Source: Candidatus Moraniibacteriota bacterium
GTDB taxonomy: Bacteria; Patescibacteriota; Minisyncoccia; Moranbacterales; UBA1568
Direction of reading: 5' to 3'
Length of the DNA: 64,000 bases
Assembly (NCBI GenBank): GCA_016699385.1
Contig: CP064974.1
Location: forward strand, 259,242-323,241
Each line of letters opens with the position of its first letter. Within the stretch, counting starts at the first letter, position 1. Of this stretch, positions 19,156 to 63,931 are shown piece by piece. Made by a program: the position numbers and the translations under genes. The notes beneath the pieces are model-generated. The model saw nothing but the letters and a program-made list of their open reading frames with translations, was not told where the DNA came from and made no database searches.

Positions 19156-19228
19156 TCTAAGCCGTAGTTGATCAATTTTCAGTACTCTGCTACCATTGTT
19201 GTTGTGGCGTTTAACTACCTTTCTTGGT

Positions 19229-20509
19229 ATGAAGAAGATACGAATTGTTGAATTGTTTGCTGGAGTTGGAGGATTTCGTCTTGGTCTTGATGCTGCAAGT
19301 AGAAAAGATTGCAAATATGAGGTTGTCTGGAGTAGCCAGTGGGAACCTGACGCTAAGATGCAGCACGCTTCCGGTATTTATGTTCACAAGTTTGGATCTA
19401 AAGGTCACTCATGTGAAGATATACGACAAGTAGTCGAGAAAAAATTTGAAGAAATAGTAGACCATGATTTGCTTGTTGGAGGTTTCCCGTGTCAGGATTA
19501 TTCCGTTGCAAGGACATTGAGTCGAGCTGAAGGCTTGAAAGGAAAGAAGGGAGTTCTTTGGTGGTCGATATTTGATATTCTGAAGAAGAAGGGGAAAAAA
19601 GCTCCTCGATTTCTTATGTTGGAGAATGTTGATCGGTTGTTGAAATCGCCAGCATCACAGCGTGGACGCGATTTCGCAGTCATGCTTTCTTCTCTTGCTG
19701 ACCTTGGTTATGCAGTTGAATGGCGGATTATAAATGCGGCAGAATATGGATTTCCGCAGAGGAGAAGACGCGTTTTTATTCTTGGGTATAAAAAGGGTAC
19801 AAACCTGTATACAACAGTGAATTCTGAGAAAATGAAGTCAGATTGGTTGCAAAGTAATGGCGTTATAGCAAAGGCATTTCCTGTTGAGAAATCTACTAAT
19901 AGTGCCCGTGAATTTCTTATTGAAGGAGATTTTGCTGAGGTGACAAAGAATTTTTCAGTCGGAGGTCCAGCGAAAAGTCCGTTTGAGAATTCCGGGCTGA
20001 TGATTAATCGAAAAGTCTATACATTGAAGACGATTCCAAAGCAGTCGAAGCATAAGATTATTCTTGGAGATATAATTGAGACTGACGAGAAGAAGATTCC
20101 AGATGTCTTTTTTGTAGATGATAATGAGATAAAGGAATGGGAGTATTTGAAGGCAGGAAAAAAAGAACGACGAGAGACAAAGACTGGGCATGTATACCAT
20201 TATTCGGAAGGGTCGATGATTTTCCCTGACTCATTAGAGAAACCATCACGTACAATCGTAACTGGTGAAGGAGGACGTTCCGCATCGAGGTTTAAGCATG
20301 TTATTAGAACAAACTCTGGGAGACTCCGCCGATTGATGCCAATAGAACTTGAGAGGCTCAATATGTTTCCTGATAATCACACGCGGTTTATGGGGGAAGG
20401 ACTGGAAGTTTCTGATGTGAAGCGAGCGTTTATTATGGGAAACGCACTTGTTGTTGGTGTCATTAGAGAGCTTGGGAAGTCTCTTCGAAAAGCTATTGAA
20501 AAAGAATAA
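19229..20509 (+). CDS. DNA (cytosine-5)-methyltransferase (type II R-M modification subunit)
   Basis: Motifs I (ELFAGVGGFRLG), IV (GGFPCQDYS), VI (LMLENV) and VIII (QRRRRVFILG) are all present. Confidence 0.9.
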   Translation: MKKIRIVELFAGVGGFRLGLDAASRKDCKYEVVWSSQWEPDAKMQHASGIYVHKFGSKGHSCEDIRQVVEKKFEEIVDHDLLVGGFPCQDYSVARTLSRAEGLKGKKGVLWWSIFDILKKKGKKAPRFLMLENVDRLLKSPASQRGRDFAVMLSSLADLGYAVEWRIINAAEYGFPQRRRRVFILGYKKGTNLYTTVNSEKMKSDWLQSNGVIAKAFPVEKSTNSAREFLIEGDFAEVTKNFSVGGPAKSPFENSGLMINRKVYTLKTIPKQSKHKIILGDIIETDEKKIPDVFFVDDNEIKEWEYLKAGKKERRETKTGHVYHYSEGSMIFPDSLEKPSRTIVTGEGGRSASRFKHVIRTNSGRLRRLMPIELERLNMFPDNHTRFMGEGLEVSDVKRAFIMGNALVVGVIRELGKSLRKAIEKE

Positions 20510-27854: not shown

Positions 27855-30386
27855 ATGTCTGAACGACCGAAAGCGACGAAATTTGTGTTTGATTCCTACG
27901 ACTTTTCTCTCGAGGAGAGAAAAGCGTCTTTTGTGTATCGGATGGAATTTGAGAATCGGGAGCCAATGGTGTTTACTGATGCACTCCTTTTTCCGGGGTT
28001 GCCGGAAACAGTGGCTGCCTCAGAATCATTGATTGATGCGGTGCTGCAAGGAGTGCATATCGCTCTTGGTGTGAGTTACTACAAACTTTCGTGTCCGGAA
28101 CATATCGAGGTGACCCATGCGCTTTCAGAGAAGCAAGCGAACTTTTGGAATACTGTCTATCGCAAAGGACTGGGTGAATTTTTCTTTCGAAATAATCTTG
28201 ATCCGCGAGGGAGAATATCGTTTCCATATGATGCGACTCTCTCCCGGGGAAGCTATGGCGCTCATCCCGAAGACCGTGCGCTTCTCGGCATTGGTGGTGG
28301 CAAAGACTCCATCGTCGCCGGAGAACTCCTCAAAGAAATGAAGTATGAAACGACGGCATTTCTTTTTGAAACAGGGAGTCCGGTACCGCTCATTGAAAAC
28401 GTCGTTGAGACGATGGGTATTCCAACAATGAAGGTGCAACACTTCCTTGATCCGCAGGTCTTTGATGGTTATGACGGGGCGTACAATGGGCATGTGCCTT
28501 TCTCGGCGCTCGTTGCATGGGTGGGATATCTTTCGGCGGTTCTCGGTGGATATCGATATGTCATTGTGGGAAATGAGCGGAGCAGTAATATCGGCAATGT
28601 CGAGTATCTCGGTGAAACAGTAAATCACCAATGGAGCAAGTCTCTTGAATTTGAGACGATGTTTCAGGAGTATTCGCGAGCATTTTTGTCGCCGGATATA
28701 ACGTATTTTTCACTGCTTCGCCCGTTTTACGAAATTCGGATTGCAGAGATGTTTGCTTGTCATGAGAAATATTTTTCTTCTTTCTCAAGTTGCAATCGGA
28801 GTTTCAAAGTACACCAAAGGCGTTCGGAAACGCTCTGGTGTGGCGAGTGTGCGAAGTGTGCTTTTGTTTTTCTCTTACTCTCGGCATTTCTCGAAAAGCA
28901 GAACGTGCTGGAAATTTTCGGTAAGAATCTCCTTGATGATGAGTCTCTTCTCCCGCTCTTTGGCGATATTTTGGGCTTTGGTTCGATGAAGCCGTTTGAC
29001 TGCGTGGGCACGGTTGAGGAGGCTCGTGCGGCACTCTTTCTTTCAAATGAACATTTCGGCGAGAGTCGCATTGCGAAAGAATTCCTTGTGAAGATTGAAC
29101 ATCCGGAATCGCTTGTTCGCGATGTAATGAAACTGCACTCGGCGCGGGCGGTTCCGGCGGATTTCCTCTTTTCGGGCGCGAAGAATGTGCTGATTCTCGG
29201 ATATGGTCGAGAAGGGAAGGAGACCGAGCGTTATCTGAAGCAGTATAAACCACATCTTGATATCGGAATTGCGGACAAAAGTCTCGATGCTTCGTATCTC
29301 GACCAGCAGAAGGGCTATGATATCGCTGTCAGGACTCCCGGCATATCGAGGCGATTGGTGATGATTCCCTCTACGACAGCGACCAATATATTTTTTTCTC
29401 GCGTGCGAAATCTTACGATTGGTGTGACTGGGACAAAGGGTAAGAGTACGACGGCGTCTCTGATTGACTCTATTCTTCGTGTAGCAGGGAGGAAGTCGCG
29501 GCTCCTTGGGAATATCGGACAGCCGCTTCTCTCTGCGCTTCTTGCTCCGCTTGATCCAGAGACAGTCATCGTGGCAGAGCTGTCGAGTTACCAGCTTGAG
29601 GATATTCAGTATTCACCGCATATCGCGGTTGTACTCAATCTCTTCTCTGATCACATGGATTATCACGGAAATGTGGAATCCTATCATGAGGCAAAGCGAA
29701 ACATCCTTCGGTTTCAAAATGAACGCGACTTCGCAGTGTACAACGGGCACGATGAAAAGCTTTCTGCGTGGGTGAGTCAGGGCAGTGCAAAGGCGATTCG
29801 TTTTGATATTCTAGAGAATGAGGTATACGAATCTTCGCTCTTGGGGACGCACAATGTAGAGAATATTCGTGCGGCGGTTGCAGTTGCGCATCTTCTCAAT
29901 ATTCACGAAGAAGCAATTCGAGAAGGTATACGGACATTTGTTCCGCTTCCGCATCGACTTGAACGTGTCGGCAAATTTCGGGGCGTCACGTTCTATGATG
30001 ATGCAATTTCGACAACGCCGGAATCGACGCAAGCAGCGCTCGAAGCGATACCAAATGTTTCAACGATTTTCCTCGGTGGTGAAGATCGAGGCTATGATTT
30101 TTGTGGACTTGAACAAACGATTCGCGAATGTGGCGTGAAAAATATAGTTCTCTTTCCGGAGAGTGGAAAGCGAATACTTTCTTCAACTGACGGCGTCACT
30201 GTCCTTGAGACGAGAAGTATGGAAGAAGCAGTTCGTTTTGCCTATGAGAAGACACCAGCTGGTTCGACGTGTCTTCTTTCAACTGCTTCGCCAAGCTATT
30301 CTCTCTGGAAAAACTTCGAGCAAAAGGGTGATGAATTCCAACAATGGGTTCGAAAACTCGGCGAAGAGAAAGCCTTGTCGGATTGA
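27855..30386 (+). CDS. murD: Fusion protein: N-terminal PP-loop-like (GGGKDS) ATP-pyrophosphatase-type domain plus C-terminal UDP-N-acetylmuramoylalanine--D-glutamate ligase (MurD-type Mur ligase)
   Basis: The C-terminal half has the MurD Rossmann N-domain (VLILGYGREGKE..), Mur ligase P-loop (GVTGTKGKSTT) and ..NLFSDHMDYHG... The N-terminal ~390 aa has an LGIGGGKDS PP-loop-like motif and a CGECAKC cluster. Confidence 0.75.
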   Translation: MSERPKATKFVFDSYDFSLEERKASFVYRMEFENREPMVFTDALLFPGLPETVAASESLIDAVLQGVHIALGVSYYKLSCPEHIEVTHALSEKQANFWNTVYRKGLGEFFFRNNLDPRGRISFPYDATLSRGSYGAHPEDRALLGIGGGKDSIVAGELLKEMKYETTAFLFETGSPVPLIENVVETMGIPTMKVQHFLDPQVFDGYDGAYNGHVPFSALVAWVGYLSAVLGGYRYVIVGNERSSNIGNVEYLGETVNHQWSKSLEFETMFQEYSRAFLSPDITYFSLLRPFYEIRIAEMFACHEKYFSSFSSCNRSFKVHQRRSETLWCGECAKCAFVFLLLSAFLEKQNVLEIFGKNLLDDESLLPLFGDILGFGSMKPFDCVGTVEEARAALFLSNEHFGESRIAKEFLVKIEHPESLVRDVMKLHSARAVPADFLFSGAKNVLILGYGREGKETERYLKQYKPHLDIGIADKSLDASYLDQQKGYDIAVRTPGISRRLVMIPSTTATNIFFSRVRNLTIGVTGTKGKSTTASLIDSILRVAGRKSRLLGNIGQPLLSALLAPLDPETVIVAELSSYQLEDIQYSPHIAVVLNLFSDHMDYHGNVESYHEAKRNILRFQNERDFAVYNGHDEKLSAWVSQGSAKAIRFDILENEVYESSLLGTHNVENIRAAVAVAHLLNIHEEAIREGIRTFVPLPHRLERVGKFRGVTFYDDAISTTPESTQAALEAIPNVSTIFLGGEDRGYDFCGLEQTIRECGVKNIVLFPESGKRILSSTDGVTVLETRSMEEAVRFAYEKTPAGSTCLLSTASPSYSLWKNFEQKGDEFQQWVRKLGEEKALSD

Positions 30387-37799: not shown

Positions 37800-39269
37800 A
37801 TGAAATACATTCCTGTTATTGGCATGGAGGTGCATGTCGAGCTCAAGACGAAGTCGAAGATGTTTTGCGGTTGTGCGAATGGTCAGGGACTTGAGAAAGA
37901 GTCGAATGTGCATGTGTGCCCTGTTTGTACGGCACAGCCTGGGACATTGCCGGTGCCAAATCGGACGGCAATTGAATATGTGCAGAAGGCGGGACTTGCC
38001 TTGGGTTGCACGCTTCGTCTCGAATCAAAATTCGATCGCAAGAACTATTTTTACCCCGATCTTCCCAAAGGATATCAGATATCACAGTATGACAAGCCGT
38101 TTTGTGAAGCAGGTGCACTTGTGATTAATGGGAAGACCTTTCGCATCACGCGCATTCACCTCGAAGAAGACACGGGGAAGCTTTCGCATGCTGCGGGCGG
38201 TATGACGCTTGTGGATTTCAATCGCGCCGGCGTGCCCTTGATGGAGCTTGTCACTGAGCCGGATTTCGAGAATGGGAAGGATGCACGCGCATTTTGTCAA
38301 CGACTTCGGCAGATCCTTCGATATATCGGTATCTCCGATGCTGATATGGAGAAGGGGCAGATGAGGTGTGAAGTGAATATTTCCCTTTACGAGAAAGGGA
38401 AGGATCGTCTGAGTGGTACGAAAGTTGAGATTAAAAATCTGAATTCATTTCGGTCAGTCGAGCGTGCAGCAGACTACGAGATTGTTCGACAGACGGAAGC
38501 TTTGCAAGACGGAAAGAAAATTGTCCAAGAAACGCGCGGATGGGACGATGTGCGCGGTGTGACGGTATCGCAGCGTGCCAAGGAGTCAGCGCACGACTAT
38601 CGCTATTTTCCCGAACCAGATATTCCGGCGCTTGTTTTTGATGAGGCATATGTCGAACATCTTCGTCGGAGTCTTCCTGAGCTTCCGGATGCGAAAGAAT
38701 CTCGCTTTGTTGAGGAATATGGACTACCAAAGGCAGATGCGGTTGCTTTGGTGTCGGAGCGAGATATTGCGGACTATTTTGAGCGTGTTGCGAGTGAGCT
38801 CCTCGAGAAGAAGGCATCTGGAGAGGCGAAAAGCGAACCGAAGAGGCTTCTGAAGCTAGCAGCGAATTATTTTCTCACAGAAATAAAAAAGTTTCTTACG
38901 GAGAATGGCAGTGATATGCGAAGCGTTTTGGTGACAGCGGAAAATTATGCCGAATTTATTGCGCTCGTTGCGGACGGTGCAGTCAATTCGAGTGCTGCAC
39001 AAACTGTACTCGCTGAAATGATGAAGGGTGGCGACAATGATCCGTTGCATATTATCGAGCGCTTGGGACTTGCGCAGACGAATGATGAAGACGCAATCGA
39101 GAAAATAGTGCTTGAAGTGATTGCGGCAAATGCGAAGTCTGTTGCTGATTACTCAAACGGGAAAGAAAATGCACTCCAGTTTCTCGTGGGGCAGGTGATG
39201 AAGCTCTCAAAAGGAAAAGCAAATCCCGAAATGGCGCGAGAGATGCTTCTAAAAAAGCTGAAACAATGA
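37800..39269 (+). CDS. gatB: Asp-tRNA(Asn)/Glu-tRNA(Gln) amidotransferase subunit B
   Basis: MKYIPVIGMEVHVELKT..CGC.., the ..C-x2-C.. zinc site and the tail domain are present. Confidence 0.93.
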   Translation: MKYIPVIGMEVHVELKTKSKMFCGCANGQGLEKESNVHVCPVCTAQPGTLPVPNRTAIEYVQKAGLALGCTLRLESKFDRKNYFYPDLPKGYQISQYDKPFCEAGALVINGKTFRITRIHLEEDTGKLSHAAGGMTLVDFNRAGVPLMELVTEPDFENGKDARAFCQRLRQILRYIGISDADMEKGQMRCEVNISLYEKGKDRLSGTKVEIKNLNSFRSVERAADYEIVRQTEALQDGKKIVQETRGWDDVRGVTVSQRAKESAHDYRYFPEPDIPALVFDEAYVEHLRRSLPELPDAKESRFVEEYGLPKADAVALVSERDIADYFERVASELLEKKASGEAKSEPKRLLKLAANYFLTEIKKFLTENGSDMRSVLVTAENYAEFIALVADGAVNSSAAQTVLAEMMKGGDNDPLHIIERLGLAQTNDEDAIEKIVLEVIAANAKSVADYSNGKENALQFLVGQVMKLSKGKANPEMAREMLLKKLKQ

Positions 39270-53554: not shown

Positions 53555-55270
53555 CTACAAGGTGGCAATAAATTTTTCAAAAAACGGCAATTCCGTAAAC
53601 AGCACTCGTTCATGTACCGGCATTTGTTTGTAGGTCAGTTTTTGAGAATTTTGGGCGTGCACCGGCACAAGAATAGTGTCTAAAGGATACGCGTGATATT
53701 CGCTTTCGGTCAAAATTTTGCTAATACAAAGCGGTACCTCGGCGATACAAACCTTATACTCTTTACCATCATAAAACACCATACAGTTTCGACGCAGAGC
53801 CGTTCTGTCATCCTCGCCATCCAAAAGAGCGAGTATTTTTTCAGGACCAAGACATGTAGCTGCTTGTTTGGAGTTCGCTCCCGGAAAACCATTCAGAGCA
53901 TTGATAAATATCCCTCCATCGGTAACGATAACAGGGTGTTTGAGAATGCTATAACTCTTTCTCGCTTTATCTTTTGCAATCTCAATAATATCATCGTGTT
54001 TTATTTCGGTAATATCGACATTCGCCAAATGAAGCGTATGCTCTGTGCATTTGCTTTGCAATTCCAACACCTTCGTGGCACTACTCGTGGCAAAATATAA
54101 AGATCGGGCTGTTGGTTTGTGAAAAACCAGAACACTCACTCGGTGAGTATCGGATCCGCTGTATGACACAGTGACCAAACCGAGTTCCGCGAGAATGTCT
54201 CTAAGCCACTCTCTCTCCAGTTGATTTTTCTGCATTCTCCCTGCATCATCGTTATTGGAAATGTTGCTGATATAGTCAAAAACGAGATAGCCGTCCGGAG
54301 TGAGAGATTCCGCCATCACTGAAAGTGTCGGCAATATATCGCTCCTGTGCATGTGTGACAGCACGACTCCGCGCGAAGTGATCAGTCCATATCTCTCCTT
54401 TTCGCCCGAAAAAATACCACTCTCAAAACGAACACGCGCATCAGTTGTTTTTTCTGTCGCAACGCGAACCATTTCAGGACTAATATCCATGCCGAGAATA
54501 TCGGAGATGGTGCTATTTTCAGCAATCAATCTCGTTACTGCGCCATCCCCGCAACCAATATCCAAAGCTGATCCCGACACAAGCGGCAATATGCGCCGTA
54601 CCTCGGTATCGAAACGATCATACCCATTTTCGTGATTCACATATGAAGTTTCATCCTCGCGTATTGATTGCCAGTTTTCAGCTCGTCCGTCCCAACGACT
54701 GGCGACATGAGCATTGTGTTTTTCTCGATTTTTCTCTACCTCTTCAATATGTTTCACGAGTTTTGCAAAAGCCTTTCCTCGATGATTTTCTTCCACGCCA
54801 AGCGCACCGAGTGAAGCACGATTGATTTGCACCAACACATCAAGCGTGAGCGGAGTATTCGAGTCAAGATGCTCATAGCGCGTCGTACCGCGCACTTCCC
54901 CGCGAAACACATGGCAGTCAAAGCCGTCAAAATATCCGATAAAGCATGTTACGGTCACGGAAGTGTTGGTCGGCAAAAATTGAGGCAGTGTTGCGAGCGT
55001 GCTGTTTTTGAGAAGATGCTTGATCAGCGCTCCGGGATACGTATCCGACCCCACCGTGAGAGAGACATCGTCCACGATGAAGGGCATCATGGTCGTTTTC
55101 CGTATCTCCGCCATTTTTTCAAGTATCACTTCCTCTCCGTTTACCGACTGTATTTCTTTCGTCTCCGCCGATTTTGGAACAATTTCAAAAAGATGAGCGG
55201 GCACGGTTTTCTGCAGTTCCCGATATTGATTCAACTTTTTCTGATTTTCCGAAATACAGTACAGCTTCAT
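53555..55270 (-). CDS. Tripartite fusion: partial Ham1/ITPase-like N-domain, class I SAM-dependent methyltransferase, and a full Ham1/ITPase (non-canonical purine NTP pyrophosphatase) domain
   Basis: The N-terminus has ..KLYCISENQKKLNQ.. and ..FIVDDVSLTVGSDTYPGALIK.. (Ham1-like). The middle has ..LDIGCGDGAVT.. (SAM MTase motif I). The C-terminus has ..FYFATSSATKVLELQ.. and ..IVTDGGIFINALNGFPGANSKQ.. (second Ham1 domain). Confidence 0.6.
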   Translation of the reverse strand: MKLYCISENQKKLNQYRELQKTVPAHLFEIVPKSAETKEIQSVNGEEVILEKMAEIRKTTMMPFIVDDVSLTVGSDTYPGALIKHLLKNSTLATLPQFLPTNTSVTVTCFIGYFDGFDCHVFRGEVRGTTRYEHLDSNTPLTLDVLVQINRASLGALGVEENHRGKAFAKLVKHIEEVEKNREKHNAHVASRWDGRAENWQSIREDETSYVNHENGYDRFDTEVRRILPLVSGSALDIGCGDGAVTRLIAENSTISDILGMDISPEMVRVATEKTTDARVRFESGIFSGEKERYGLITSRGVVLSHMHRSDILPTLSVMAESLTPDGYLVFDYISNISNNDDAGRMQKNQLEREWLRDILAELGLVTVSYSGSDTHRVSVLVFHKPTARSLYFATSSATKVLELQSKCTEHTLHLANVDITEIKHDDIIEIAKDKARKSYSILKHPVIVTDGGIFINALNGFPGANSKQAATCLGPEKILALLDGEDDRTALRRNCMVFYDGKEYKVCIAEVPLCISKILTESEYHAYPLDTILVPVHAQNSQKLTYKQMPVHERVLFTELPFFEKFIATL

Positions 55271-57634: not shown

Positions 57635-58054
57635 GTGATTATGAAAAATCTATTTTGGAAAATCTACAGTATTCTTATAGCGAGCATAATTGTTGTTGCA
57701 ATTATTGCAGGCGTTCTTTTTTTTGGCGGACAGTTGCGAGTGAATTCTTTTATTGGTTTGCTTTTGGTTCTTCCGGCACTCGTACCTCCTATTGGTCTTA
57801 TCGCCTTCGCATGGGGAAAACCGATTGGTTGGTTATGGATGTGGAAAATGTTTGTATGGATACTTAGTGTTATTAGCGCTTTGGAATTTATTGGTAGGAT
57901 CATAAACATGGTAAATCAGGATGACTCTTGTTTTGGCGCATGGTGTTACATTACTGAACCGCTTTCCATAGCATTTGGGCTACCTCTTGTTATTGGACTC
58001 TATCTTTACGCCTATCGGAGCCAAGAAATTTGGAAGGTAAAACAACCTTCATGA
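57635..58054 (+). CDS. Hypothetical membrane protein
   Basis: The 139-aa protein has four hydrophobic helices. Confidence 0.5.
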   Translation: MIMKNLFWKIYSILIASIIVVAIIAGVLFFGGQLRVNSFIGLLLVLPALVPPIGLIAFAWGKPIGWLWMWKMFVWILSVISALEFIGRIINMVNQDDSCFGAWCYITEPLSIAFGLPLVIGLYLYAYRSQEIWKVKQPS

Positions 58055-58725
58055 ACTCCGCTGACTTTCGAACTGCCACGTTTCAAGATCTTCAAAAAAT
58101 CCCCACCAGCGAAAATGGGGAGACTTTGGTTGAGGCAAATACTTTTGATTACTCCATAATCTGTGAACATGTCCAGCGCGATATGGAAGGTTTCACTGGA
58201 GAAAAGGTATTCGTCCGCGAAGGATTGGCGCATCGACTTGCAAAAGCAAATGTTTTCCTTAAAACCAAGAATCCCGAATACTGCTTGCGGATCGTTTACG
58301 GATACCGCCACCCAGTTGTTCAAGAAAAATACTTTTCCGAAATGCGGCAGGTTGTCGCAAAAGAACATCAAGAACTTGATGAAAGCGAAATTATTTCCTT
58401 GACGCACAACTTCATTGCCGTCCCGGAAGTAGCAGGGCACCCAACTGGAGGAGCTGTGGATGTCACGATAGCGACAGCATCGGGCAATCTCGATATGGGG
58501 ACGGATATATCTGATTTTAGTCGCGCGGATGCTATCAAAACCTTTGCAAAAGGGATCTCTTTTGAGGCGCTTTCTAATCGACTTCTTCTTCGCGATGCGA
58601 TGGTGTCTGCCGATTTTGCACCATTCTACGGAGAATGGTGGCACTTTTGCTTTGGTGATCGAGAATGGGCGTTTTTTTATGAGAAACATGCTTCGTTATA
58701 TTCGCCGATTCGGTTTCAGATATAG
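58051..58725 (+). CDS. ddpX: D-alanyl-D-alanine dipeptidase (VanX/DdpX, peptidase M15D)
   Basis: VanX motifs are present (..IVYGYRHP.., S-x-H-x2-G-x-A-x-D as ..AGHPTGGAVDV.., and EWWHF). Confidence 0.8.
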   Translation: MNSADFRTATFQDLQKIPTSENGETLVEANTFDYSIICEHVQRDMEGFTGEKVFVREGLAHRLAKANVFLKTKNPEYCLRIVYGYRHPVVQEKYFSEMRQVVAKEHQELDESEIISLTHNFIAVPEVAGHPTGGAVDVTIATASGNLDMGTDISDFSRADAIKTFAKGISFEALSNRLLLRDAMVSADFAPFYGEWWHFCFGDREWAFFYEKHASLYSPIRFQI

Positions 58726-59095: not shown

Positions 59096-60403
59096 ATGCG
59101 TGTATTGTTTGTATCTCGAGATCTATCCGGAGGAGACTTGTGTTATCGCCTCAAGCAAGAAGGGCATGATGTGAAGCTTTTCATCCGCGACAAGGATCAG
59201 CAACAGAATCTTGAAGGAATGGTGACAAAGGTGAGTGATTGGAAAAAGGAACTGAAATGGGTTGGGAAAAATGGACTCATTGTTTTTGACAGTACCGGAT
59301 ACGGTCGAGAACAGGATAAATTGCGAGCACGAGGGTACTCTGTCGTTGGGGGATGTGCGCTTGGTGATAAGTTGGAAGACAATCGGGCATTTGGTGAAAA
59401 AATCCTTTCAGAATGTGGCATTGCTACTATACCATCGAAAAGTTTTTACTCACTTGATGAGGCAATTGCATTTGTTAAGAAGAATAGAGGTGAGTGGGTA
59501 GTGAAACAAAATGGGCATGTATCCAAAATTTTCAACTACGTTGGACACATGGCGGATGGAAGCGATGTAATTGAAATTCTGAAGTCGTATAGAAAATATA
59601 ATAAGAAAGATGCCTCTTCTATTCAATTGCAGCGAAGAAAATACGGTGTCGAAATTGGTGTGGCGCGATATTTTAATGGGCATGACTGGGTGGGTCCGAT
59701 TGAAATGAATGTTGAATACAAGAGTTTGTGCGCTGGTGGTTTGGGTCCAAAGACTGACGAAATGGGAACGCTCATGTGGTACGATGACAATGAGGATAAC
59801 GTGCTTTTTCAGAGGACGCTTGCGAAACTAAAGAACTATTTGCAGGAGATAGGTTTTCATGGAGACTTTGATATTAACTGCATTGTTGATAAAGATGGCA
59901 TATATCCATTGGAAGCAACGGCACGGTTTGGTTCTCCGTCAACGCAGTTGCAGGCGAGTCTGCATGTTTCTCCGTGGGGCGAATTTCTCAAGGCAGTTGC
60001 TGATGGGAAGTCGTATAATCTGAAATATAAGCGGGGATTTGGTGTTATTGTCCTCTTGGCGACGCCTCCTTTTCCTTATACTGCTATTTCACAGCGGTAT
60101 TCTGTTCGAGGTTCCGGTGTGTTTTTCAAAGAGCAATTGACAAAAGATGAGTTGAGTCGAATTCACATCGAAGAACTTTCAACGAACAAGCAAGGCAATC
60201 TTTATATCTCTGGGAAGCGGGGATTTGTTCTTGATGTGAGTGGTGTTGGAAAGACGGTTGAGGCCGCTCAAAAACAAGCGTACTCATTGGCTGAGAAAAT
60301 CGTCATTCCAAAGAAATTCTATCGAACTGATATTGGTGAGAAATTCCTGAAACAAGAGCGAGCGCTCTTGGAAAAGTGGGGATATCTAAAGAGGAAACAC
60401 TAA
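59096..60403 (+). CDS. purD: Phosphoribosylamine--glycine ligase-like ATP-grasp protein (PurD family, divergent)
   Basis: N-terminal MRVLFVS..GG.., ATP-grasp ..EYKSLCAGGLGPKTDEMGT.., ..FNCRFGSP-like and C-terminal ..AQKQAYSLAEKI...RTDIG.. run parallel to PurD. Confidence 0.6.
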   Translation: MRVLFVSRDLSGGDLCYRLKQEGHDVKLFIRDKDQQQNLEGMVTKVSDWKKELKWVGKNGLIVFDSTGYGREQDKLRARGYSVVGGCALGDKLEDNRAFGEKILSECGIATIPSKSFYSLDEAIAFVKKNRGEWVVKQNGHVSKIFNYVGHMADGSDVIEILKSYRKYNKKDASSIQLQRRKYGVEIGVARYFNGHDWVGPIEMNVEYKSLCAGGLGPKTDEMGTLMWYDDNEDNVLFQRTLAKLKNYLQEIGFHGDFDINCIVDKDGIYPLEATARFGSPSTQLQASLHVSPWGEFLKAVADGKSYNLKYKRGFGVIVLLATPPFPYTAISQRYSVRGSGVFFKEQLTKDELSRIHIEELSTNKQGNLYISGKRGFVLDVSGVGKTVEAAQKQAYSLAEKIVIPKKFYRTDIGEKFLKQERALLEKWGYLKRKH

Positions 60404-60532: not shown

Positions 60533-62521
60533 ATGGGAAAAACCTTGCAAAAAAAAGATCTTTATTGTATTTCAATAAATTTGAACAATAATGCTCAAGG
60601 TATTGTTAATGCCTGTAATATCAATGATGTTTCTCAGGGATACGACAGATTTAAGAAACTTTCTTGTGTAGAAGAGGTGGTAATTTTGCAAAAATGTAAT
60701 TGCACGGAGATTTTTATTTGGGGAACTTTTGATTTGGGAAAAATTGTAGAGACATGGAAATCTGTTAGCATTGATCCGGATGGTTTTGGTGAATCTGACA
60801 TTACCATTTACCGCGAGAACAAGTGTGTCGAACATCTCTTGCAGGTGTCTTCTGGATTGAAGAGCGTGACTGTTGGGGATGGTCAGGTGCTTGGGCAAGT
60901 TCGACTCGCTTTGACAAATAGTAAAAAATTTAAAGCCTCCGGTCCGGTTATGGAGGTTCTTTTCCGGTCGGCTAAAAAAGTAGCGCTTTTAGTAAAAGAG
61001 AAGACATCTATAGGAATCGGAAATGTTTCAGTTGGTCGACAAGCGGTAGAATTGCTTCAGAATGTAAACGGCGACCAATCTCAACGTATTCTGATTGTCG
61101 GGTGTGGGGCTATGGGAAATCTCATTGTGAATGTTCTGCATGAAAAAGGTTTTGAATGTGTTGATGTTACAAATAGAACAGCATTCCGAGCAAATAGGTT
61201 AATTGAAGCTGGAGTAGCAAGAACTAGAATTGAGTTTAGTGAATACCTTGACAAAATAGAGGGATATGATGCTGTTTTTTTCTGTCTCTCGAGTGTTCTT
61301 TCTTACGAAGAAGCAGAGAAAATAAATGCATTGTCTCATATACCAAAAATTATTGATGTTGGAAATCCACAAAACACAATTCTGCTCGCATCTCTGAATA
61401 AAAGCGCGTATATCTATTCGATAGCGACCATAAAAAAGCTGACTGCCCAGCGATATCGAGATTGGGTAGCTCAAATTGAGAAGGCAAATGAGATTATTAG
61501 AGAAAATGTTAATGAGGTGTATCGTGCTATAGAAAAAGAATTAATAAATGTGGAAGTTGGCTTAAATTTGGAACTGAGCAAAAAGAGGCTTAATAAAAAC
61601 TTGGCACATATTGCTTTTTTGAGAAGTATTTTCGAAAAAGGTTTTCGAGACTATCTACAGGAAAAGAAGGGTTACACTGAAGTTCATACTCCATATATTG
61701 TGCCGATATCAACTGATCCGCCAAGGAACAATGCGAGTGAGGAATTATTTTCTGTTCAGTGGTACGAAAGGAAGCTTTTTCTGCGACAGTCTAACCAAAT
61801 GTATAAACAAATGCTTGTCTTATCTGGGATGAAGAGAATTTTTGAGTACGGACCATTTTGGCGTGAAGAAGCGAGTCCTACCGCAAGGCACTTATCAGAA
61901 GCATGGGGACTTGATGTTGAAATGCAATTGAAAAAAAACGAAGGAATTGAAATTTTGCTTTCTGCTGCCGGAGAAATACTTCATTTTTCGTCGAAGAGGT
62001 TGTTGGAAAAGCAACTTATTGTGCAAGAGGATATTATTGCAAAAGAAATTCAGTCCATAAGTTATGACGAGGTATTTGAGATAGTAACTGCTCATATTGA
62101 TACTGATTATTCGTATGGGGATGACCTTGGTTATAGTAGAGAGTATGAAATTGCAAATCTCTTAAAAGAGAGTCGTGGCTGGGATATTTTTGCAATTGTT
62201 CATTATCCGAACCTGACGAAAAAGTTTTATACGAAAGAGGTAGACGAACACTACACAGAGTCTTTTGATATCATTTATAGGGGTTGGGAGATTTGTTCTG
62301 GCGCCGTACGCGAGACGGATGTCTCTCGCATTATTGAGAGGATGAAGACATCAGGTATAAACCCTGAAAACTTTCGCTTCTACCTTGATTATTTTATGGT
62401 GCCAACTTCGCATGGCGGTTTTTGTCTTGGAATTGATCGGGTTATTGCAAAATTGCTCGAGTGTAGTACTGTCGAAGATGTCGTATTGTTCCCAAGAAGC
62501 CAGACGCATATTATTCCTTAA
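60533..62521 (+). CDS. Chimeric protein: glutamyl-tRNA reductase (HemA) catalytic and NADPH domains fused to an archaeal/eukaryal-type class IIb aaRS (AspRS/AsnRS/AsnA-like) catalytic core that lacks the anticodon-binding domain
   Basis: Residues 1-330 match HemA: ..VVILQKCNCTEIFIW.. (compared with TCNRTE and its catalytic Cys), ..HLLQVSSGLKSVTVGDGQVLGQVRLAL.. (compared with [24 protein letters not shown]), and Rossmann ..ILIVGCGAMGN... Residues ~350-662 match a class II core: ..GYTEVHTPYIV.., ..LRQSNQMYKQ.., motif 2 ..GPFWREEASPTARHLSEAWGLDVEM.. and motif 3 ..GGFCLGIDRVIAKLL... Confidence 0.6.
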   Translation: MGKTLQKKDLYCISINLNNNAQGIVNACNINDVSQGYDRFKKLSCVEEVVILQKCNCTEIFIWGTFDLGKIVETWKSVSIDPDGFGESDITIYRENKCVEHLLQVSSGLKSVTVGDGQVLGQVRLALTNSKKFKASGPVMEVLFRSAKKVALLVKEKTSIGIGNVSVGRQAVELLQNVNGDQSQRILIVGCGAMGNLIVNVLHEKGFECVDVTNRTAFRANRLIEAGVARTRIEFSEYLDKIEGYDAVFFCLSSVLSYEEAEKINALSHIPKIIDVGNPQNTILLASLNKSAYIYSIATIKKLTAQRYRDWVAQIEKANEIIRENVNEVYRAIEKELINVEVGLNLELSKKRLNKNLAHIAFLRSIFEKGFRDYLQEKKGYTEVHTPYIVPISTDPPRNNASEELFSVQWYERKLFLRQSNQMYKQMLVLSGMKRIFEYGPFWREEASPTARHLSEAWGLDVEMQLKKNEGIEILLSAAGEILHFSSKRLLEKQLIVQEDIIAKEIQSISYDEVFEIVTAHIDTDYSYGDDLGYSREYEIANLLKESRGWDIFAIVHYPNLTKKFYTKEVDEHYTESFDIIYRGWEICSGAVRETDVSRIIERMKTSGINPENFRFYLDYFMVPTSHGGFCLGIDRVIAKLLECSTVEDVVLFPRSQTHIIP

Positions 62522-62533
62522 ATAGAAACCGTT

Positions 62534-63931
62534 ATGAAAACTTATAGAAGAAACGACTGTTCTATTGCTGAGAGTCGAGAATGTGTTGGAAAAAATATTA
62601 CACTTTCTGGGTGGGTGCACAGTCTTCGGTTGCATGGGAAGGTTGCTTTTTGTGATCTTCGTGACTTCTCAGGGAAAATTCAAGTTGTTTTTACTGGAAA
62701 AGTATTTGAGCAGATAAAAGAGGTTTCTCTCGAGTCAGTTATACAGGTTTCTGGAATCATTGTTGAACGGCAACAAAACTGCATCAATGCAAATCAACCT
62801 CTTGGCGACAGAGAACTTGTTGTGGAGACCCTTCGAGTCTTCGCATTGTCAACAGCTCTTCCATTCCCTGTCGACGATGACACGAGCAAAATAGATGAAT
62901 CTCTCCGTATGAAATATCGGTATCTCGATCTTCGATCAGATCGAATGCAGAGGAATATCCGGTCCCGCCATGAAGCTATGCTTTTTCTTCGGAACTATTA
63001 CAGTGAAAACGGCTTCTGTGAAGTGGAGACGCCTATGCTCACCAAAGGAACGCCGGAAGGTGCTCGGGAGTTCATTGTTCCTTCAAGGATTCATCGTGGG
63101 CAGTTTTATGTTCTCCCGCAATCTCCGCAACAATTCAAGCAGCTTCTCATGGTTTCCGGTATGGGGAAATATTTTCAAGTGGCACGGTGTTTTCGTGATG
63201 AAGATCAACGGCAGGATCGCCAGCCGGAATTTACTCAATTCGACATTGAAATGTCTTTTGCTGACGAGGGAGATGTTATGCAGACGGTTGAGGATTCCGT
63301 GAAAGCACTTGTTTCGAAAGTGTTTCCTGGTAAGAAGATTCTTGCTACACCATTTCCGCGAATGACCTACGCAGAATCGATTAAGAATTATGGTTGTGAT
63401 AAGCCGGATATGAGAAAAGGCGAGAATGATGATACTTTGGCATTTTGCTGGGTGACGGAATTTCCGCTTTTTGAGGAAGATAGCTCTTCAAAAAGCGGGA
63501 TTTCATCAGCGCATCACCCATTTACTATGCCACTTGACGAAGATATCCCTCGCATGAAAACTCATCCGCTCTCTGTTCGATCCACGGCATTTGATCTTGT
63601 TCTTAATGGGTATGAAATCAGCTCCGGGAGTGCCCGCATATATGATGCTAATCTGCAGAAGAATGTATTCGAGTTGCTTGGACTCGAAGAAGAAGAAATT
63701 CAGAACAAATTTGGGCATATGCTTCGGGCATTTTCCTTGGGTGTTCCGCCACATGCTGGGACGGGGCTTGGTATAGATCGTCTCTTCTCCACCATTCTTG
63801 GAGAGGGGAGTATTCGTGAAGTAATTGCTTTCCCAAAAACAGGCGAGGCAAAGGACTTGCTCATGGGTGCTCCAAGCGAGCTCTCTGATGAAACTTTGCA
63901 ACAAGCTTGGATTGAAAAACGGAAGAAATGA
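62534..63931 (+). CDS. aspS: Aspartate--tRNA ligase (bacterial type, compact, apparently without GAD insertion)
   Basis: An N-terminal OB fold, motif 2 ..FQVARCFRDEDQRQDRQPEFTQFDIEMSF.. and motif 3 ..GTGLGIDRL.. are present. The protein is 465 aa. Confidence 0.9.
   Translation: MKTYRRNDCSIAESRECVGKNITLSGWVHSLRLHGKVAFCDLRDFSGKIQVVFTGKVFEQIKEVSLESVIQVSGIIVERQQNCINANQPLGDRELVVETLRVFALSTALPFPVDDDTSKIDESLRMKYRYLDLRSDRMQRNIRSRHEAMLFLRNYYSENGFCEVETPMLTKGTPEGAREFIVPSRIHRGQFYVLPQSPQQFKQLLMVSGMGKYFQVARCFRDEDQRQDRQPEFTQFDIEMSFADEGDVMQTVEDSVKALVSKVFPGKKILATPFPRMTYAESIKNYGCDKPDMRKGENDDTLAFCWVTEFPLFEEDSSSKSGISSAHHPFTMPLDEDIPRMKTHPLSVRSTAFDLVLNGYEISSGSARIYDANLQKNVFELLGLEEEEIQNKFGHMLRAFSLGVPPHAGTGLGIDRLFSTILGEGSIREVIAFPKTGEAKDLLMGAPSELSDETLQQAWIEKRKK

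What the first reader, a model, noticed from the sequence alone, without database searches (positions are those of the whole stretch)
60533..63931. Chimeric glutamyl-tRNA reductase / AspRS-like catalytic core gene immediately upstream of aspS
One 662-aa ORF joins a complete HemA-type GluTR core to a class IIb aminoacyl-tRNA synthetase catalytic core. The GluTR part includes the catalytic Cys motif ..CNCTE.., the GluTR signature ..SSGL.S...G..Q.LGQV.. and an NADPH Rossmann domain. The aaRS part has archaeal-type AspRS/AsnRS motifs 1, 2 and 3 and no anticodon-binding OB domain. The usual GluTR dimerisation domain is replaced by this core. It is the same part of the fold that gave rise to asparagine synthetase A. 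The gene sits directly before a bona fide aspS. GluTR recognises Glu-tRNA(Glu) and forms a thioester with the glutamyl moiety. A class II core activates an amino acid as an adenylate. Fusing the two suggests a tRNA-dependent amino-acid transformation, for example amidation or ligation on a tRNA-bound glutamyl group or an AsnA-like amidation coupled to tRNA chemistry, rather than heme synthesis. No other tetrapyrrole genes lie in the window, and the inferred lineage is not expected to make heme. I know of no described GluTR-aaRS fusion.
Basis: partly seen in the sequence, partly recalled or inferred. Interest (0 to 1): 0.85.

Follow-up and report, generated by a model that had tools for sequence, protein, structure and literature searches.

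The report
GluTR-like reductase fused to AspRS core
A real, conserved gene of tiny "candidate phyla radiation" bacteria joins a glutamyl-tRNA-reductase-type enzyme, lacking its glutamate-binding arginine, to an aspartyl-tRNA-synthetase catalytic core; it probably reduces activated aspartate rather than making heme precursors, a reaction not described so far.

Summary
ORF 60533-62521 (662 aa) carries GlutR_N, an NADPH Rossmann domain and a class IIb tRNA-synt_2 core. It has no OB anticodon domain and no GluTR dimerisation domain. aspS starts 12 nt downstream.

It is not an assembly artefact. About 55 full-length relatives, down to about 30% identity, exist in independent assemblies. Those with organism names are nearly all CPR/Patescibacteria.

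All 55 keep the nucleophile Cys (K-C-N) and the NADPH site. None keeps the canonical C-N-R arginine; they have A, C, S or G there. 45 of 55 keep an intact AspRS-type ATP/aspartate pocket.

The gene recurs beside the housekeeping GAD-less AspRS, an SDR and an Amidohydro_2 protein, in several gene orders. A reverse look-up from Amidohydro_2 found the fusion again in two of three places.

Best reading (confidence 0.4): an ATP- and NADPH-dependent reductase of activated aspartate, not glutamate. The aspartyl group is probably passed on the 3' end of tRNA(Asp) to Cys55 and reduced to an amino aldehyde. The end product is unknown.

No tetrapyrrole genes are in the window. I found no published description. 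NCBI calls the protein "hypothetical" or "amino acid--tRNA ligase-related".

The parts
60533..62521 (+). Fusion gene, 662 aa: GluTR-like thioester reductase joined to an OB-less AspRS-like catalytic core. Identical to QQR77806.1.
60623..61006 (+). GlutR_N-type catalytic domain, residues 31-158.
   Evidence: Pfam PF05201, 78 bits. S111, G115, D116, Q118 and Q122 are invariant in 55 of 55 members.
60692..60703 (+). Codons for K54-C55-N56-C57. C55 is the predicted nucleophile. Position 57 replaces the canonical GluTR arginine.
   Evidence: K, C and N are present in 55 of 55 members. Position 57 is A32/C11/S7/G5 and never R. Canonical GluTRs have STCNR.
61073..61435 (+). NADPH-binding Rossmann domain, residues 181-301. 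Includes GxGxxG at 190-195 and N214-R215.
   Evidence: Pfam PF01488. G190 and G192 are kept in 55/55, G195 in 49/55, R215 in 52/55.
61421..61588 (+). Long 'spinal' alpha-helix, residues 297-352. It runs straight into the first helix of the aaRS core. The GluTR dimerisation domain is absent.
   Evidence: AlphaFold2 model with helices H297-352 and H355-378. 1gpj aligns up to about residue 335. PF00745 was not detected.
61592..62500 (+). Class IIb (archaeal-type AspRS-like) catalytic core, residues 354-656. No anticodon-binding OB domain.
61709..61723 (+). Family-specific S-T-D-P-P loop, residues 393-397. It replaces the AspRS 'flipping loop' [ST]EGG.
61787..61807 (+). QSNQMYK, residues 419-425. 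Counterpart of the AspRS QSPQxYK aspartate-binding motif. K425 is kept in 48 of 55 members.
61856..61921 (+). Class II motif 2 and its loop: FWREE...RHLSEAWGLDVE, including R444, E446, D461 and E463.
62411..62440 (+). Class II motif 3: HGGFCLGIDR, including R636.
62534..63931 (+). aspS, 465 aa. Bacterial-type AspRS without the GAD insertion. It starts 12 nt after the fusion's stop codon. This is the standard CPR housekeeping AspRS and the recurrent neighbour of the fusion.
59096..60403 (+). Divergent purD-like ATP-grasp gene, 435 aa. It is the upstream neighbour only in the Moraniibacteriota clade. Whether it belongs to the pathway is unknown.

Best explanation
The gene encodes a bifunctional enzyme. 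So far it is seen almost only in CPR/Patescibacteria.

Anatomy: an aspartyl-tRNA-synthetase-derived adenylate-forming core, without an anticodon-binding domain, is grafted onto the end of the long spinal helix of a GluTR-type Cys/NADPH thioester reductase. It takes the place of the GluTR dimerisation domain. It probably also supplies dimerisation, as class II cores do.

Most likely reaction, acting on aspartate rather than glutamate:
1. The core binds ATP and L-Asp and forms Asp-AMP. The binding and catalytic residues are shown; the activity is inferred.
2. The aspartyl group is carried as an ester on the 3' end of tRNA(Asp). The tRNA is charged in cis by the core, in trans by the co-transcribed housekeeping AspRS, or both (inferred). 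The precedents are ErdS and LysX, where an aaRS is fused to an enzyme that consumes its aminoacyl-tRNA.
3. Cys55 attacks the ester and forms an aspartyl-thioester.
4. NADPH reduces the thioester to the alpha-amino aldehyde, L-aspartate 1-semialdehyde (3-amino-4-oxobutanoate). This is inferred by analogy with GluTR chemistry.
5. In most lineages a co-inherited YdfG-like SDR and an Amidohydro_2 metal hydrolase or decarboxylase would process this reactive aldehyde. The window's copy lacks them within reach and is flanked instead by a purD-like ATP-grasp gene.

The physiological end product is unknown. The gene is not a heme-pathway HemA.
For: Architecture and folds.

Reductase machinery is invariant in 55 of 55 full-length members: K54, C55, N56, S111, D116, Q118, Q122, R169, G190, G192.

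The canonical C-N-R arginine is never present in this family. It is present in the six canonical GluTRs sampled and in 4n7r. The preceding Thr or Ser is replaced by an invariant Lys.

The AspRS-type ATP/aspartate site is intact in 45 of 55 members. That means 0-3 changes across 23 key positions, including S420, Q422, K425, R444, E446, D461, E463, R593 and R636. The C half is more conserved than the N half, 42% against 29% mean identity.

The core is closest to AspRS, not AsnA: PRK05159 scores 236 bits and AsnA 99 bits.

Gene neighbourhood in 27 non-redundant loci: AspRS in 20, SDR in 15, Amidohydro_2 in 9, in at least four gene orders.

Reverse look-up from Amidohydro_2 returns the fusion plus AspRS in 2 of 3 places.

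In fusion-less CPR genomes the backbone is aspS-scpA-scpB. The cassette sits between aspS and scpA in L007.

The residue equivalent to M. kandleri R300, proposed to contact the acceptor stem (PMC6399207), is Arg in 54 of 55 members.

Precedent for tRNA(Asp) used as a swinging arm inside an AspRS fusion: ErdS (PMC13219428, PMC7334510).
Against: - There is no biochemical evidence at all.
- Without the OB domain the core may not bind or charge tRNA. AsnA, EpmA and the aa:CP ligases are OB-less or tRNA-domain-less class II homologues that do not charge tRNA.
- About 10 divergent members have a degenerate aaRS site, so cis-activation cannot be universal.
- The Arg-to-small-residue change shows loss of the glutamate-binding feature. 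It is not positive evidence for aspartate.
- No use is known for aspartate 1-semialdehyde.
- The role I assign to the canonical Arg rests on my recollection of Moser et al. 2001, which could not be read here.
- The window's own copy lacks the SDR and Amidohydro_2 neighbours and has W instead of R at position 311.
- Synteny could partly reflect common descent.
- I had no coordinates from the model, so I could not measure the distance between the two active sites.
Confidence: 0.4

Rival explanations
1. Trans-only model. The GluTR-like part reduces Asp-tRNA(Asp) made by the neighbouring housekeeping AspRS. The AspRS-like core does not charge tRNA. It serves as a dimerisation and tRNA- or Asp-docking scaffold, or as a sensor.
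For: - Tight linkage to aspS.
- About 10 members keep a perfect reductase site but have a degenerate aaRS site.
- The GluTR-like module also occurs alone or with a different C-terminal partner: P0088 with L039, and P0094.
- The core lacks an anticodon-binding domain.
Against: - 45 of 55 members keep all or nearly all of 23 ATP, Mg and Asp-binding positions.
- The core is the better-conserved half. That is hard to explain for a purely structural domain.
Confidence: 0.2
2. tRNA-independent carboxylate reductase. The core makes Asp-AMP and passes the aspartyl group directly to the Cys55 thiol. It would be analogous to aa:carrier-protein ligases or to CAR enzymes, and NADPH then reduces the thioester.
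For: - The core has no OB domain.
- Class II aaRS homologues that aminoacylate a thiol instead of tRNA are known: the aa:CP ligases (cited in PMC9437257).
- The net chemistry is the same as in the best explanation.
Against: - A predicted helix of about 56 residues separates the two domains.
- The acceptor-stem-proximal Arg of GluTR is kept in 54 of 55 members.
- The motif 2 loop is conserved.
- The recurrent linkage to a full AspRS would go unexplained.
- Members with a dead aaRS site still keep the reductase site.
Confidence: 0.15
3. AsnA-like amidation, or another amino-acid ligation. The core acts as an asparagine-synthetase-type enzyme, possibly on a tRNA-bound glutamyl or aspartyl group, and the GluTR part only binds tRNA.
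For: - AsnA profiles match weakly.
Against: - AspRS profiles score far higher than AsnA profiles, 236 against 99 bits.
- The Cys nucleophile and the NADPH site are invariant in 55 of 55 members, which amidation does not need.
- The window already encodes GatB, and a close relative encodes an archaeal-type non-discriminating AspRS. Together these give the tRNA-dependent route to Asn.
Confidence: 0.05
4. An ordinary glutamyl-tRNA reductase for tetrapyrrole synthesis that happens to carry an odd C-terminal domain.
For: GlutR_N and Rossmann profile matches, and the fold match to 1gpj.
Against: - The canonical C-N-R arginine is absent in all 55 members.
- The protein is below the hemA equivalog cut-off.
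- The partner domain is Asp-specific, not Glu-specific.
- No tetrapyrrole genes are among the 30 largest ORFs of the window.
- CPR bacteria are generally held to lack heme synthesis (established knowledge).
Confidence: 0.03

Closest known systems
Glutamyl-tRNA reductase (HemA/GtrR; structures 1gpj and 4n7r)
   Same: - Same nucleophile Cys-Asn pair.
- Same S...G[DE]xQxxxQ signature, GxGxxG and N-R motifs.
   Different: - The C-N-R arginine is replaced by A, C, S or G.
- The preceding Thr or Ser is replaced by an invariant Lys.
- The dimerisation domain is replaced by an aaRS core.
- It scores below the equivalog cut-off.
- It has no heme gene context.
- The predicted substrate is an aspartyl group, not a glutamyl group.
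Archaeal-type (non-discriminating) AspRS, e.g. Thermococcus kodakarensis 3nel/1b8a
   Same: - Complete class IIb catalytic core with motifs 1-3.
- Same aspartate-binding Ser, Gln, Lys, Asp and Arg residues.
- About 32% identity over residues 136-438.
   Different: - No OB anticodon-binding domain or hinge.
- The flipping loop [ST]EGG is replaced by S-T-D-P-P plus a 5-residue insert.
- QSPQ is changed to QSNQ.
- It forms its own clade, together with free-standing OB-less cores (NJ tree).
ErdS (AspRS fused to a DUF2156 transferase) and LysX (LysRS fused to MprF-like LysPGS)
   Same: One polypeptide joins an aaRS to an enzyme that consumes the aminoacyl-tRNA it makes. In ErdS the entrapped tRNA(Asp) acts as a swinging arm between the two sites (PMC13219428).
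   Different: - In those enzymes the aaRS part, as far as I recall, is complete and includes the anticodon-binding domain.
- There the consuming domain is a GNAT-fold aminoacyl transferase acting on lipids. Here it is a thioester reductase.
Asparagine synthetase A (E. coli AsnA and archaeal AS-AR), EpmA/GenX, and aa:carrier-protein ligases
   Same: They are class II aaRS catalytic cores that have lost the tRNA anticodon-binding domain and use the aminoacyl-adenylate for a non-translational acceptor.
   Different: - They are free-standing proteins with other acceptors: ammonia, EF-P lysine or a phosphopantetheine thiol.
- The fusion core scores far better on AspRS profiles than on AsnA or EpmA profiles.
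Carboxylic acid reductases and NRPS terminal reductase modules
   Same: Same overall logic: ATP-dependent adenylation, then a thioester, then NADPH reduction to an aldehyde. A flexible carrier moves the acyl group between the sites.
   Different: The folds are unrelated: ANL adenylation domain, phosphopantetheinyl carrier and SDR reductase. Here the parts are a class II aaRS core, probably a tRNA 3' end, and a GluTR-type Cys reductase.

Membership tests
Glutamyl-tRNA reductase (HemA) | N-terminal catalytic domain (PF05201) and GluTR fold | tested here: met
   [not shown]
Glutamyl-tRNA reductase (HemA) | Nucleophilic Cys in the C-N motif | tested here: met
   C55 and N56 are present in 55 of 55 members.
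Glutamyl-tRNA reductase (HemA) | Arginine of the [ST]-C-N-R motif. Its glutamate side-chain-binding role is from my own recollection of Moser et al. 2001. | tested here: not met
   Cys57 in the window protein. A32/C11/S7/G5 across the family and never R. R is present in the canonical GluTRs P0032-37 and in 4n7r.
Glutamyl-tRNA reductase (HemA) | NADPH-binding Rossmann domain | tested here: met
   PF01488, 53 bits. GxGxxG and N-R are conserved.
Glutamyl-tRNA reductase (HemA) | C-terminal dimerisation domain (PF00745) | tested here: not met
   Not detected. It is present in the canonical hits. Its position is taken by the tRNA-synt_2 core.
Glutamyl-tRNA reductase (HemA) | Curated equivalog score (TIGR01035) | tested here: not met
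   160.2 bits against a cut-off of 209.55.
Glutamyl-tRNA reductase (HemA) | Reduces Glu-tRNA(Glu) to GSA; genome carries hemL and later heme genes | not testable with these tools
   No tetrapyrrole genes among the 30 largest ORFs of the 64-kb window.
Aspartyl-tRNA synthetase (archaeal type) | Class II catalytic core with motifs 1, 2 and 3 | tested here: met
   PF00152, 170 bits. Aligned with 3nel. R444 is kept in 50/55 and R636 in 53/55 members.
Aspartyl-tRNA synthetase (archaeal type) | Aspartate-binding residues: QSxQxxK, D..E after motif 2, and SGxxR. Their roles are from my own knowledge of AspRS structures. | tested here: met
   S420, Q422, K425, D461, E463 and R593 align with the 3nel residues. 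They are kept in 48 to 54 of 55 members.
Aspartyl-tRNA synthetase (archaeal type) | N-terminal OB-fold anticodon-binding domain | tested here: not met
   No PF01336 hit. Only residues 136-438 of 3nel and positions 129-438 of PRK05159 are matched.
Aspartyl-tRNA synthetase (archaeal type) | Curated equivalog score (NF003483) | tested here: not met
   236 bits against a cut-off of 353.
Aspartyl-tRNA synthetase (archaeal type) | Aminoacylates tRNA(Asp) | not testable with these tools
   Needs an enzyme assay.
Asparagine synthetase A (AsnA / AS-AR) | OB-less class IIb core | tested here: met
   [not shown]
Asparagine synthetase A (AsnA / AS-AR) | Curated profile score (NF005052 and related models), and closer to AsnA than to AspRS | tested here: not met
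   99 bits against a cut-off of 368. AspRS models score 236 bits.
aaRS fused to an aminoacyl-tRNA-consuming enzyme (ErdS, LysX type) | An aaRS catalytic module and a domain of a family that uses aminoacyl-tRNA, in one polypeptide | tested here: met
aaRS fused to an aminoacyl-tRNA-consuming enzyme (ErdS, LysX type) | Complete aaRS with anticodon-binding domain; the consuming domain is a DUF2156/GNAT transferase | tested here: not met
   No OB domain. The consuming domain is GluTR-like.
aaRS fused to an aminoacyl-tRNA-consuming enzyme (ErdS, LysX type) | tRNA 3' end shuttles between the two active sites | not testable with these tools
   No model coordinates and no RNA-protein modelling were available.

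The most novel reading that the evidence does not exclude
This would be a second natural aminoacyl-tRNA reductase besides GluTR. It would be an aspartyl-tRNA reductase with its own built-in synthetase core. It would keep tRNA(Asp) as a swinging-arm cofactor and make aspartate 1-semialdehyde. That would open a previously unknown tRNA-dependent small-molecule pathway, together with the SDR and Amidohydro_2 partners, in CPR bacteria that otherwise have almost no biosynthesis.
Probability: 0.3. Interest if true: 0.9.

Novelty: new variant of a known kind. Interest (0 to 1): 0.72.

Why it matters
GluTR is, as far as I know, the only enzyme known to reduce an aminoacyl-tRNA, and it is known only in tetrapyrrole synthesis.

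This family keeps that chemistry, has lost the glutamate-binding arginine and is welded to an aspartate-activating core. It occurs in organisms generally held to lack heme synthesis. That would widen the range of non-translational uses of aminoacyl-tRNA, which now include GluTR, Fem transferases, MprF, ErdS and cyclodipeptide synthases.

It would also reveal a conserved accessory pathway in the poorly understood CPR. And it would give a natural, compact 'amino acid to amino aldehyde' catalyst built from translation parts.

It is directly testable with one recombinant protein.

Tried and rejected
- Frameshift or assembly artefact: rejected. Identical and divergent full-length copies occur in independent assemblies.
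- A dedicated, pathway-specific AspRS paralogue next to the fusion: rejected. The GAD-less AspRS of about 460 aa is the ordinary CPR AspRS, with at least 8000 clusters, and it occurs without the fusion.
- A dedicated tRNA gene near the fusion: none is consistent across 30 loci.
- Split-gene (Rosetta stone) form with the N and C halves as neighbours: not found. N-only P0088 is followed by an unrelated 299-aa ORF. The free-standing core in L031 has no GluTR-like gene within 10 kb, and its context is uninformative.
- Function of Amidohydro_2: a single-sequence PDB search found nothing. A profile search gave only weak hits to uncharacterised hydrolases, LigY and decarboxylases. There was no NCBIfam hit.
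- The AFDB Foldseek library was unavailable.
- The GluTR structure paper (Moser 2001) is not held. Other papers gave only general mechanism statements. One literature search was too broad to be useful.
- Promoter and terminator scan: at background level.
- The midpoint-rooted tree was uninformative. It was re-rooted on a eukaryote-type AspRS. There are no bootstraps.
- The distance between the two active sites could not be measured, because model coordinates are not exposed.

Full report
**Observation**

The window holds an uninterrupted ORF at 60533..62521 (+), 662 aa. Pfam finds three domains:
- GlutR_N, residues 31-158, 78 bits.
- A Shikimate_DH-type Rossmann domain, residues 181-301.
- tRNA-synt_2, residues 354-656, 170 bits.

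There is no OB anticodon domain and no GlutR_dimer domain. NCBIfam gives hemA (TIGR01035) 160 bits over profile positions 21-335 of 416. It gives aspartate--tRNA(Asn) ligase (PRK05159) 236 bits over positions 129-438 of 438. Both are below their equivalog cut-offs.

Against solved structures, the N half matches Arabidopsis and Methanopyrus GluTR at E about 1e-20. The C half aligns end to end with residues 136-438 of Thermococcus AspRS at E 2e-48.

The next gene, 62534..63931, starts 12 nt after the stop codon with no terminator between. It is a bacterial-type aspS without the GAD insertion: 594 bits on NF001750 against a cut-off of 443.

**Not an artefact, and the source organism**

The identical protein is QQR77806.1, a 'hypothetical protein' of a Candidatus Moraniibacteriota MAG on a 1.11 Mb contig. 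It also occurs in a Logan assembly. An 87%-identical locus lies in another Moraniibacteriota MAG.

A word-index search found about 30 full-length relatives at 30-33% identity. An exhaustive HMMER scan of 1.84 billion representatives placed tens of proteins of 617-695 aa covering the whole profile above the ordinary AspRS hits. I aligned 55 full-length members.

The family is rare. Where organisms are named for the fusion or its cassette neighbours, they are CPR groups: Moraniibacteriota, Microgenomates, Kaiserbacteria, Nomurabacteria and Paceibacterota. Two MAGs carry other labels, Fervidobacterium and Gammaproteobacteria. NCBI names are 'hypothetical protein' or 'amino acid--tRNA ligase-related protein'. 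JGI calls some members 'aspartyl-tRNA synthetase'.

**What the residues say: the reductase half**

In all 55 members these residues are invariant: K54, C55, N56, G108, S111, G115, D116, Q118, Q122, R169, G190, G192 and D275. G195, N214 and R215 are nearly invariant. The nucleophile and the NADPH site are therefore under strict selection.

Canonical GluTRs carry [ST]-C-N-R-[TV]-E. In this family the Arg position is A (32), C (11), S (7) or G (5) and never R. The residue before the Cys is always Lys rather than Thr or Ser.

From my own recollection of the M. kandleri structure paper (Moser et al. 2001), this Arg makes the salt bridge to the glutamate gamma-carboxylate. That paper is not held here, so its role is not tool-verified. 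Its universal loss still argues that the substrate is not a glutamyl group.

The residue equivalent to M. kandleri R300 is Arg in 54 of 55 members and Trp in the window protein. R300 was proposed to mimic an acceptor-stem contact (PMC6399207).

**What the residues say: the synthetase half**

The alignment with 3nel shows the following:
- Motif 2 and its loop are kept: FWREE....RHLSEAWGLDVE.
- Motif 3 is kept: HGGFCLGIDR.
- The AspRS QSPQxYK motif is QSNQMYK here.
- The SGxxR arginine is kept.

The [ST]EGG flipping loop is replaced by a family-specific S-T-D-P-P loop with a 5-residue insert.

Of 23 key positions, 45 of 55 members differ from the window protein at 0-3. About 10 divergent members have degenerate sites. 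P0070 differs at 19 of 23 positions and P0079 at 15 of 23, yet both keep the reductase site perfectly.

The C half is more conserved than the N half, 42% against 29% mean pairwise identity.

In a neighbour-joining tree, all fusion cores form one clade with eight free-standing OB-less cores of about 300-340 aa. This clade is separate from about 90 full-length archaeal or eukaryal-type AspRS. There are no bootstraps.

**Genomic context**

I examined 27 non-redundant loci. The fusion lies next to:
- a bacterial-type AspRS of 459-480 aa in 20 loci;
- a YdfG-like SDR of about 246 aa in 15 loci;
- an Amidohydro_2 protein of about 345 aa in 9 loci (many contigs end before it);
- a HIT protein in 4 loci.

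The gene orders vary:
- HIT-AspRS-SDR-fusion-Amidohydro_2.
- Fusion-AspRS, followed by SDR and Amidohydro_2 on the opposite strand.
- Amidohydro_2-fusion-AspRS.
- Fusion-AspRS-Amidohydro_2.

The Amidohydro_2 proteins keep the HxH...H...H...D metal ligands. They have no characterised close relative. The subfamily carries only CPR names where any organism is named.

Starting from Amidohydro_2, two of three sampled contexts again contain the fusion and AspRS. One of them is Microgenomates GW2011_GWC1_37_8.

The neighbouring AspRS is not a special paralogue. GAD-less enzymes of about 460 aa are the standard CPR AspRS, with at least 8000 clusters. In fusion-less CPR genomes aspS is followed by scpA-scpB-Peptidase_S11-mraY. 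In L007 the SDR-fusion-Amidohydro_2 block sits exactly between aspS and scpA. It is therefore an accessory cassette lodged beside the housekeeping aspS.

The window's Moraniibacteriota clade has a different arrangement: purD-like ATP-grasp, fusion, aspS and then HIT. No SDR or Amidohydro_2 homologue occurs in the 64-kb window or within 10 kb in L001. One clade of 667-680 aa members has no AspRS neighbour.

**Heme**

None of the 30 largest other ORFs of the window is a tetrapyrrole gene. They encode ribosomal proteins and SecY, glycolytic enzymes, a Mur ligase, malic enzyme, thioredoxin reductase, CbiM, GatB, MiaA, DnaE, RNase HII, HisRS and others. The whole genome could not be inspected.

**Mechanism**

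Shown:
- A GluTR-type Cys/NADPH reductase is under strict conservation but lacks the canonical C-N-R arginine.
- An AspRS-type adenylate-forming pocket is intact in most members.
- The two are joined covalently through the spinal helix.
- The gene is persistently linked to aspS, an SDR and an Amidohydro_2.

Inferred:
- The core activates aspartate.
- The aspartyl group reaches Cys55 as an ester on the tRNA(Asp) 3' end. The tRNA is charged in cis, by the adjacent AspRS, or both.
- A thioester forms, and NADPH reduces it to aspartate 1-semialdehyde.
- The SDR and Amidohydro_2 then process that aldehyde.

ErdS gives a direct precedent. It is an AspRS fused to an enzyme that consumes Asp-tRNA, with the tRNA held as a swinging arm (PMC13219428 and PMC7334510). 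LysX is analogous (NF002821).

Members with a dead synthetase site but an intact reductase site suggest the reductase can take its substrate in trans. That favours aminoacyl-tRNA over an obligatory direct adenylate-to-Cys transfer.

I give the tRNA-mediated aspartate-reduction model 0.4. The rivals are:
- trans-only scaffold model, 0.2;
- tRNA-independent CAR-like model, 0.15;
- AsnA-like amidation, 0.05;
- genuine HemA, 0.03.

**Novelty**

Full-text searches for GluTR with AspRS fusion, GluTR in CPR, and 'aminoacyl/aspartyl-tRNA reductase' or 'GluTR-like' found nothing relevant. An archaeal fusion survey reports only HemA-HemB. A 2022 review of aaRS paralogues lists only AsnA/AS-AR and ErdS for AspRS and never mentions a reductase.

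The parts belong to known families, but the combination, the altered substrate pocket and the gene cassette are undescribed. I therefore rate it a new variant of known kinds. It would be of high interest if the predicted chemistry is confirmed.

Noticed in passing
L039 1802-3758; proteins P0088 and P0094: The same GluTR-like 'KCNA' module also occurs without the aaRS core. P0088 (354 aa) is followed, with overlapping stop and start, by a 299-aa ORF with no Pfam hit. That ORF equals the C-terminal part of P0094 (635 aa), which joins the GluTR-like module to predicted membrane helices and a region with a GNAT-like motif, RPVNxFGxRQxEK (my reading of the sequence). So the reductase module has at least two alternative partners.
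   Followed up: partly
L031 9980-10969; proteins P0065-67, P0075, P0076, P0083, P0098: Free-standing OB-less cores of about 300-340 aa belong to the same clade as the fusion cores (355 bits on the family core HMM, against about 218 bits for ordinary archaeal-type AspRS). The L031 context is uninformative: histidine kinase, AAA_18 protein, a class I aaRS and Sua5.
   Followed up: partly
Proteins P0056, P0058, P0062, P0063, P0068, P0070, P0074, P0077, P0079, P0081: Divergent fusion members have a degenerate or re-specified aaRS pocket. Examples are K425 changed to L with D461 changed to S or H, and motif 2 and 3 arginines lost in P0070 and P0079. All keep a perfect reductase site. Other amino-acid specificities or purely structural cores are possible.
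   Followed up: partly
window 59096-60403 and 58030-58725: A divergent purD-like ATP-grasp gene (94 bits against a purD cut-off of 288) lies directly upstream of the fusion. Purine synthesis is not expected in this lineage. A VanX-type D-Ala-D-Ala dipeptidase (Peptidase_M15) lies further upstream. The ATP-grasp gene is conserved as a neighbour only in the Moraniibacteriota clade (L001, L010).
   Followed up: partly
window 37800-39269; L001 18235-19560: The window encodes GatB. The 87%-identical relative carries a second, archaeal-type non-discriminating AspRS (441 aa, 509 bits against a cut-off of 353) 5 kb downstream of the bacterial-type aspS. This resembles the Thermus/Deinococcus arrangement of two AspRS plus an amidotransferase for asparagine formation.
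   Followed up: partly
L020 2857-8876: Three class IIb aaRS paralogues lie just upstream of the fusion on a 778-kb contig: two archaeal-type AspRS of 431 and 484 aa, and one AsnRS-like protein of 437 aa that is below the cut-off. A HIT gene follows the first.
   Followed up: no
L044 5070-11386: One Amidohydro_2 family member has no fusion nearby. It sits beside Peptidase_S51 (the aspartyl dipeptidase and cyanophycinase family) and an LPG_synthase_C (aminoacyl-tRNA transferase) gene. It is also close to a radical-SAM gene co-oriented with a 439-aa class IIb aaRS. In L003 an AstE/AspA-family gene follows the Amidohydro_2 gene. Aspartate-related enzymes thus recur in these neighbourhoods.
   Followed up: no
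L002 12024-12827; also L022 and L023: In the fusion clade that lacks an AspRS neighbour, a 267-aa metallo-beta-lactamase-fold protein (Lactamase_B_2) lies next to the fusion on the opposite strand in three loci.
   Followed up: no
window 61463-61465 (residue 311): The window protein has Trp where 54 of 55 family members, including its 86%-identical relative, have Arg. This position aligns with M. kandleri GluTR R300.
   Followed up: no
window 17770-20509: A MutH-domain protein (461 aa) sits next to a C-5 cytosine DNA methylase (437 aa), in the lowest-GC stretch of the first 60 kb (0.40). It is possibly a restriction-modification or mismatch-nicking module.
   Followed up: no
window 53555-55270 (-) and 27855-30386 (+): Two unusual architectures. 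One is a 571-aa protein joining a SAM methyltransferase domain to a Ham1 (ITPase) domain. The other is an 843-aa protein whose Mur-ligase middle domain starts only at residue 524, leaving a long unassigned N-terminal part.
   Followed up: no
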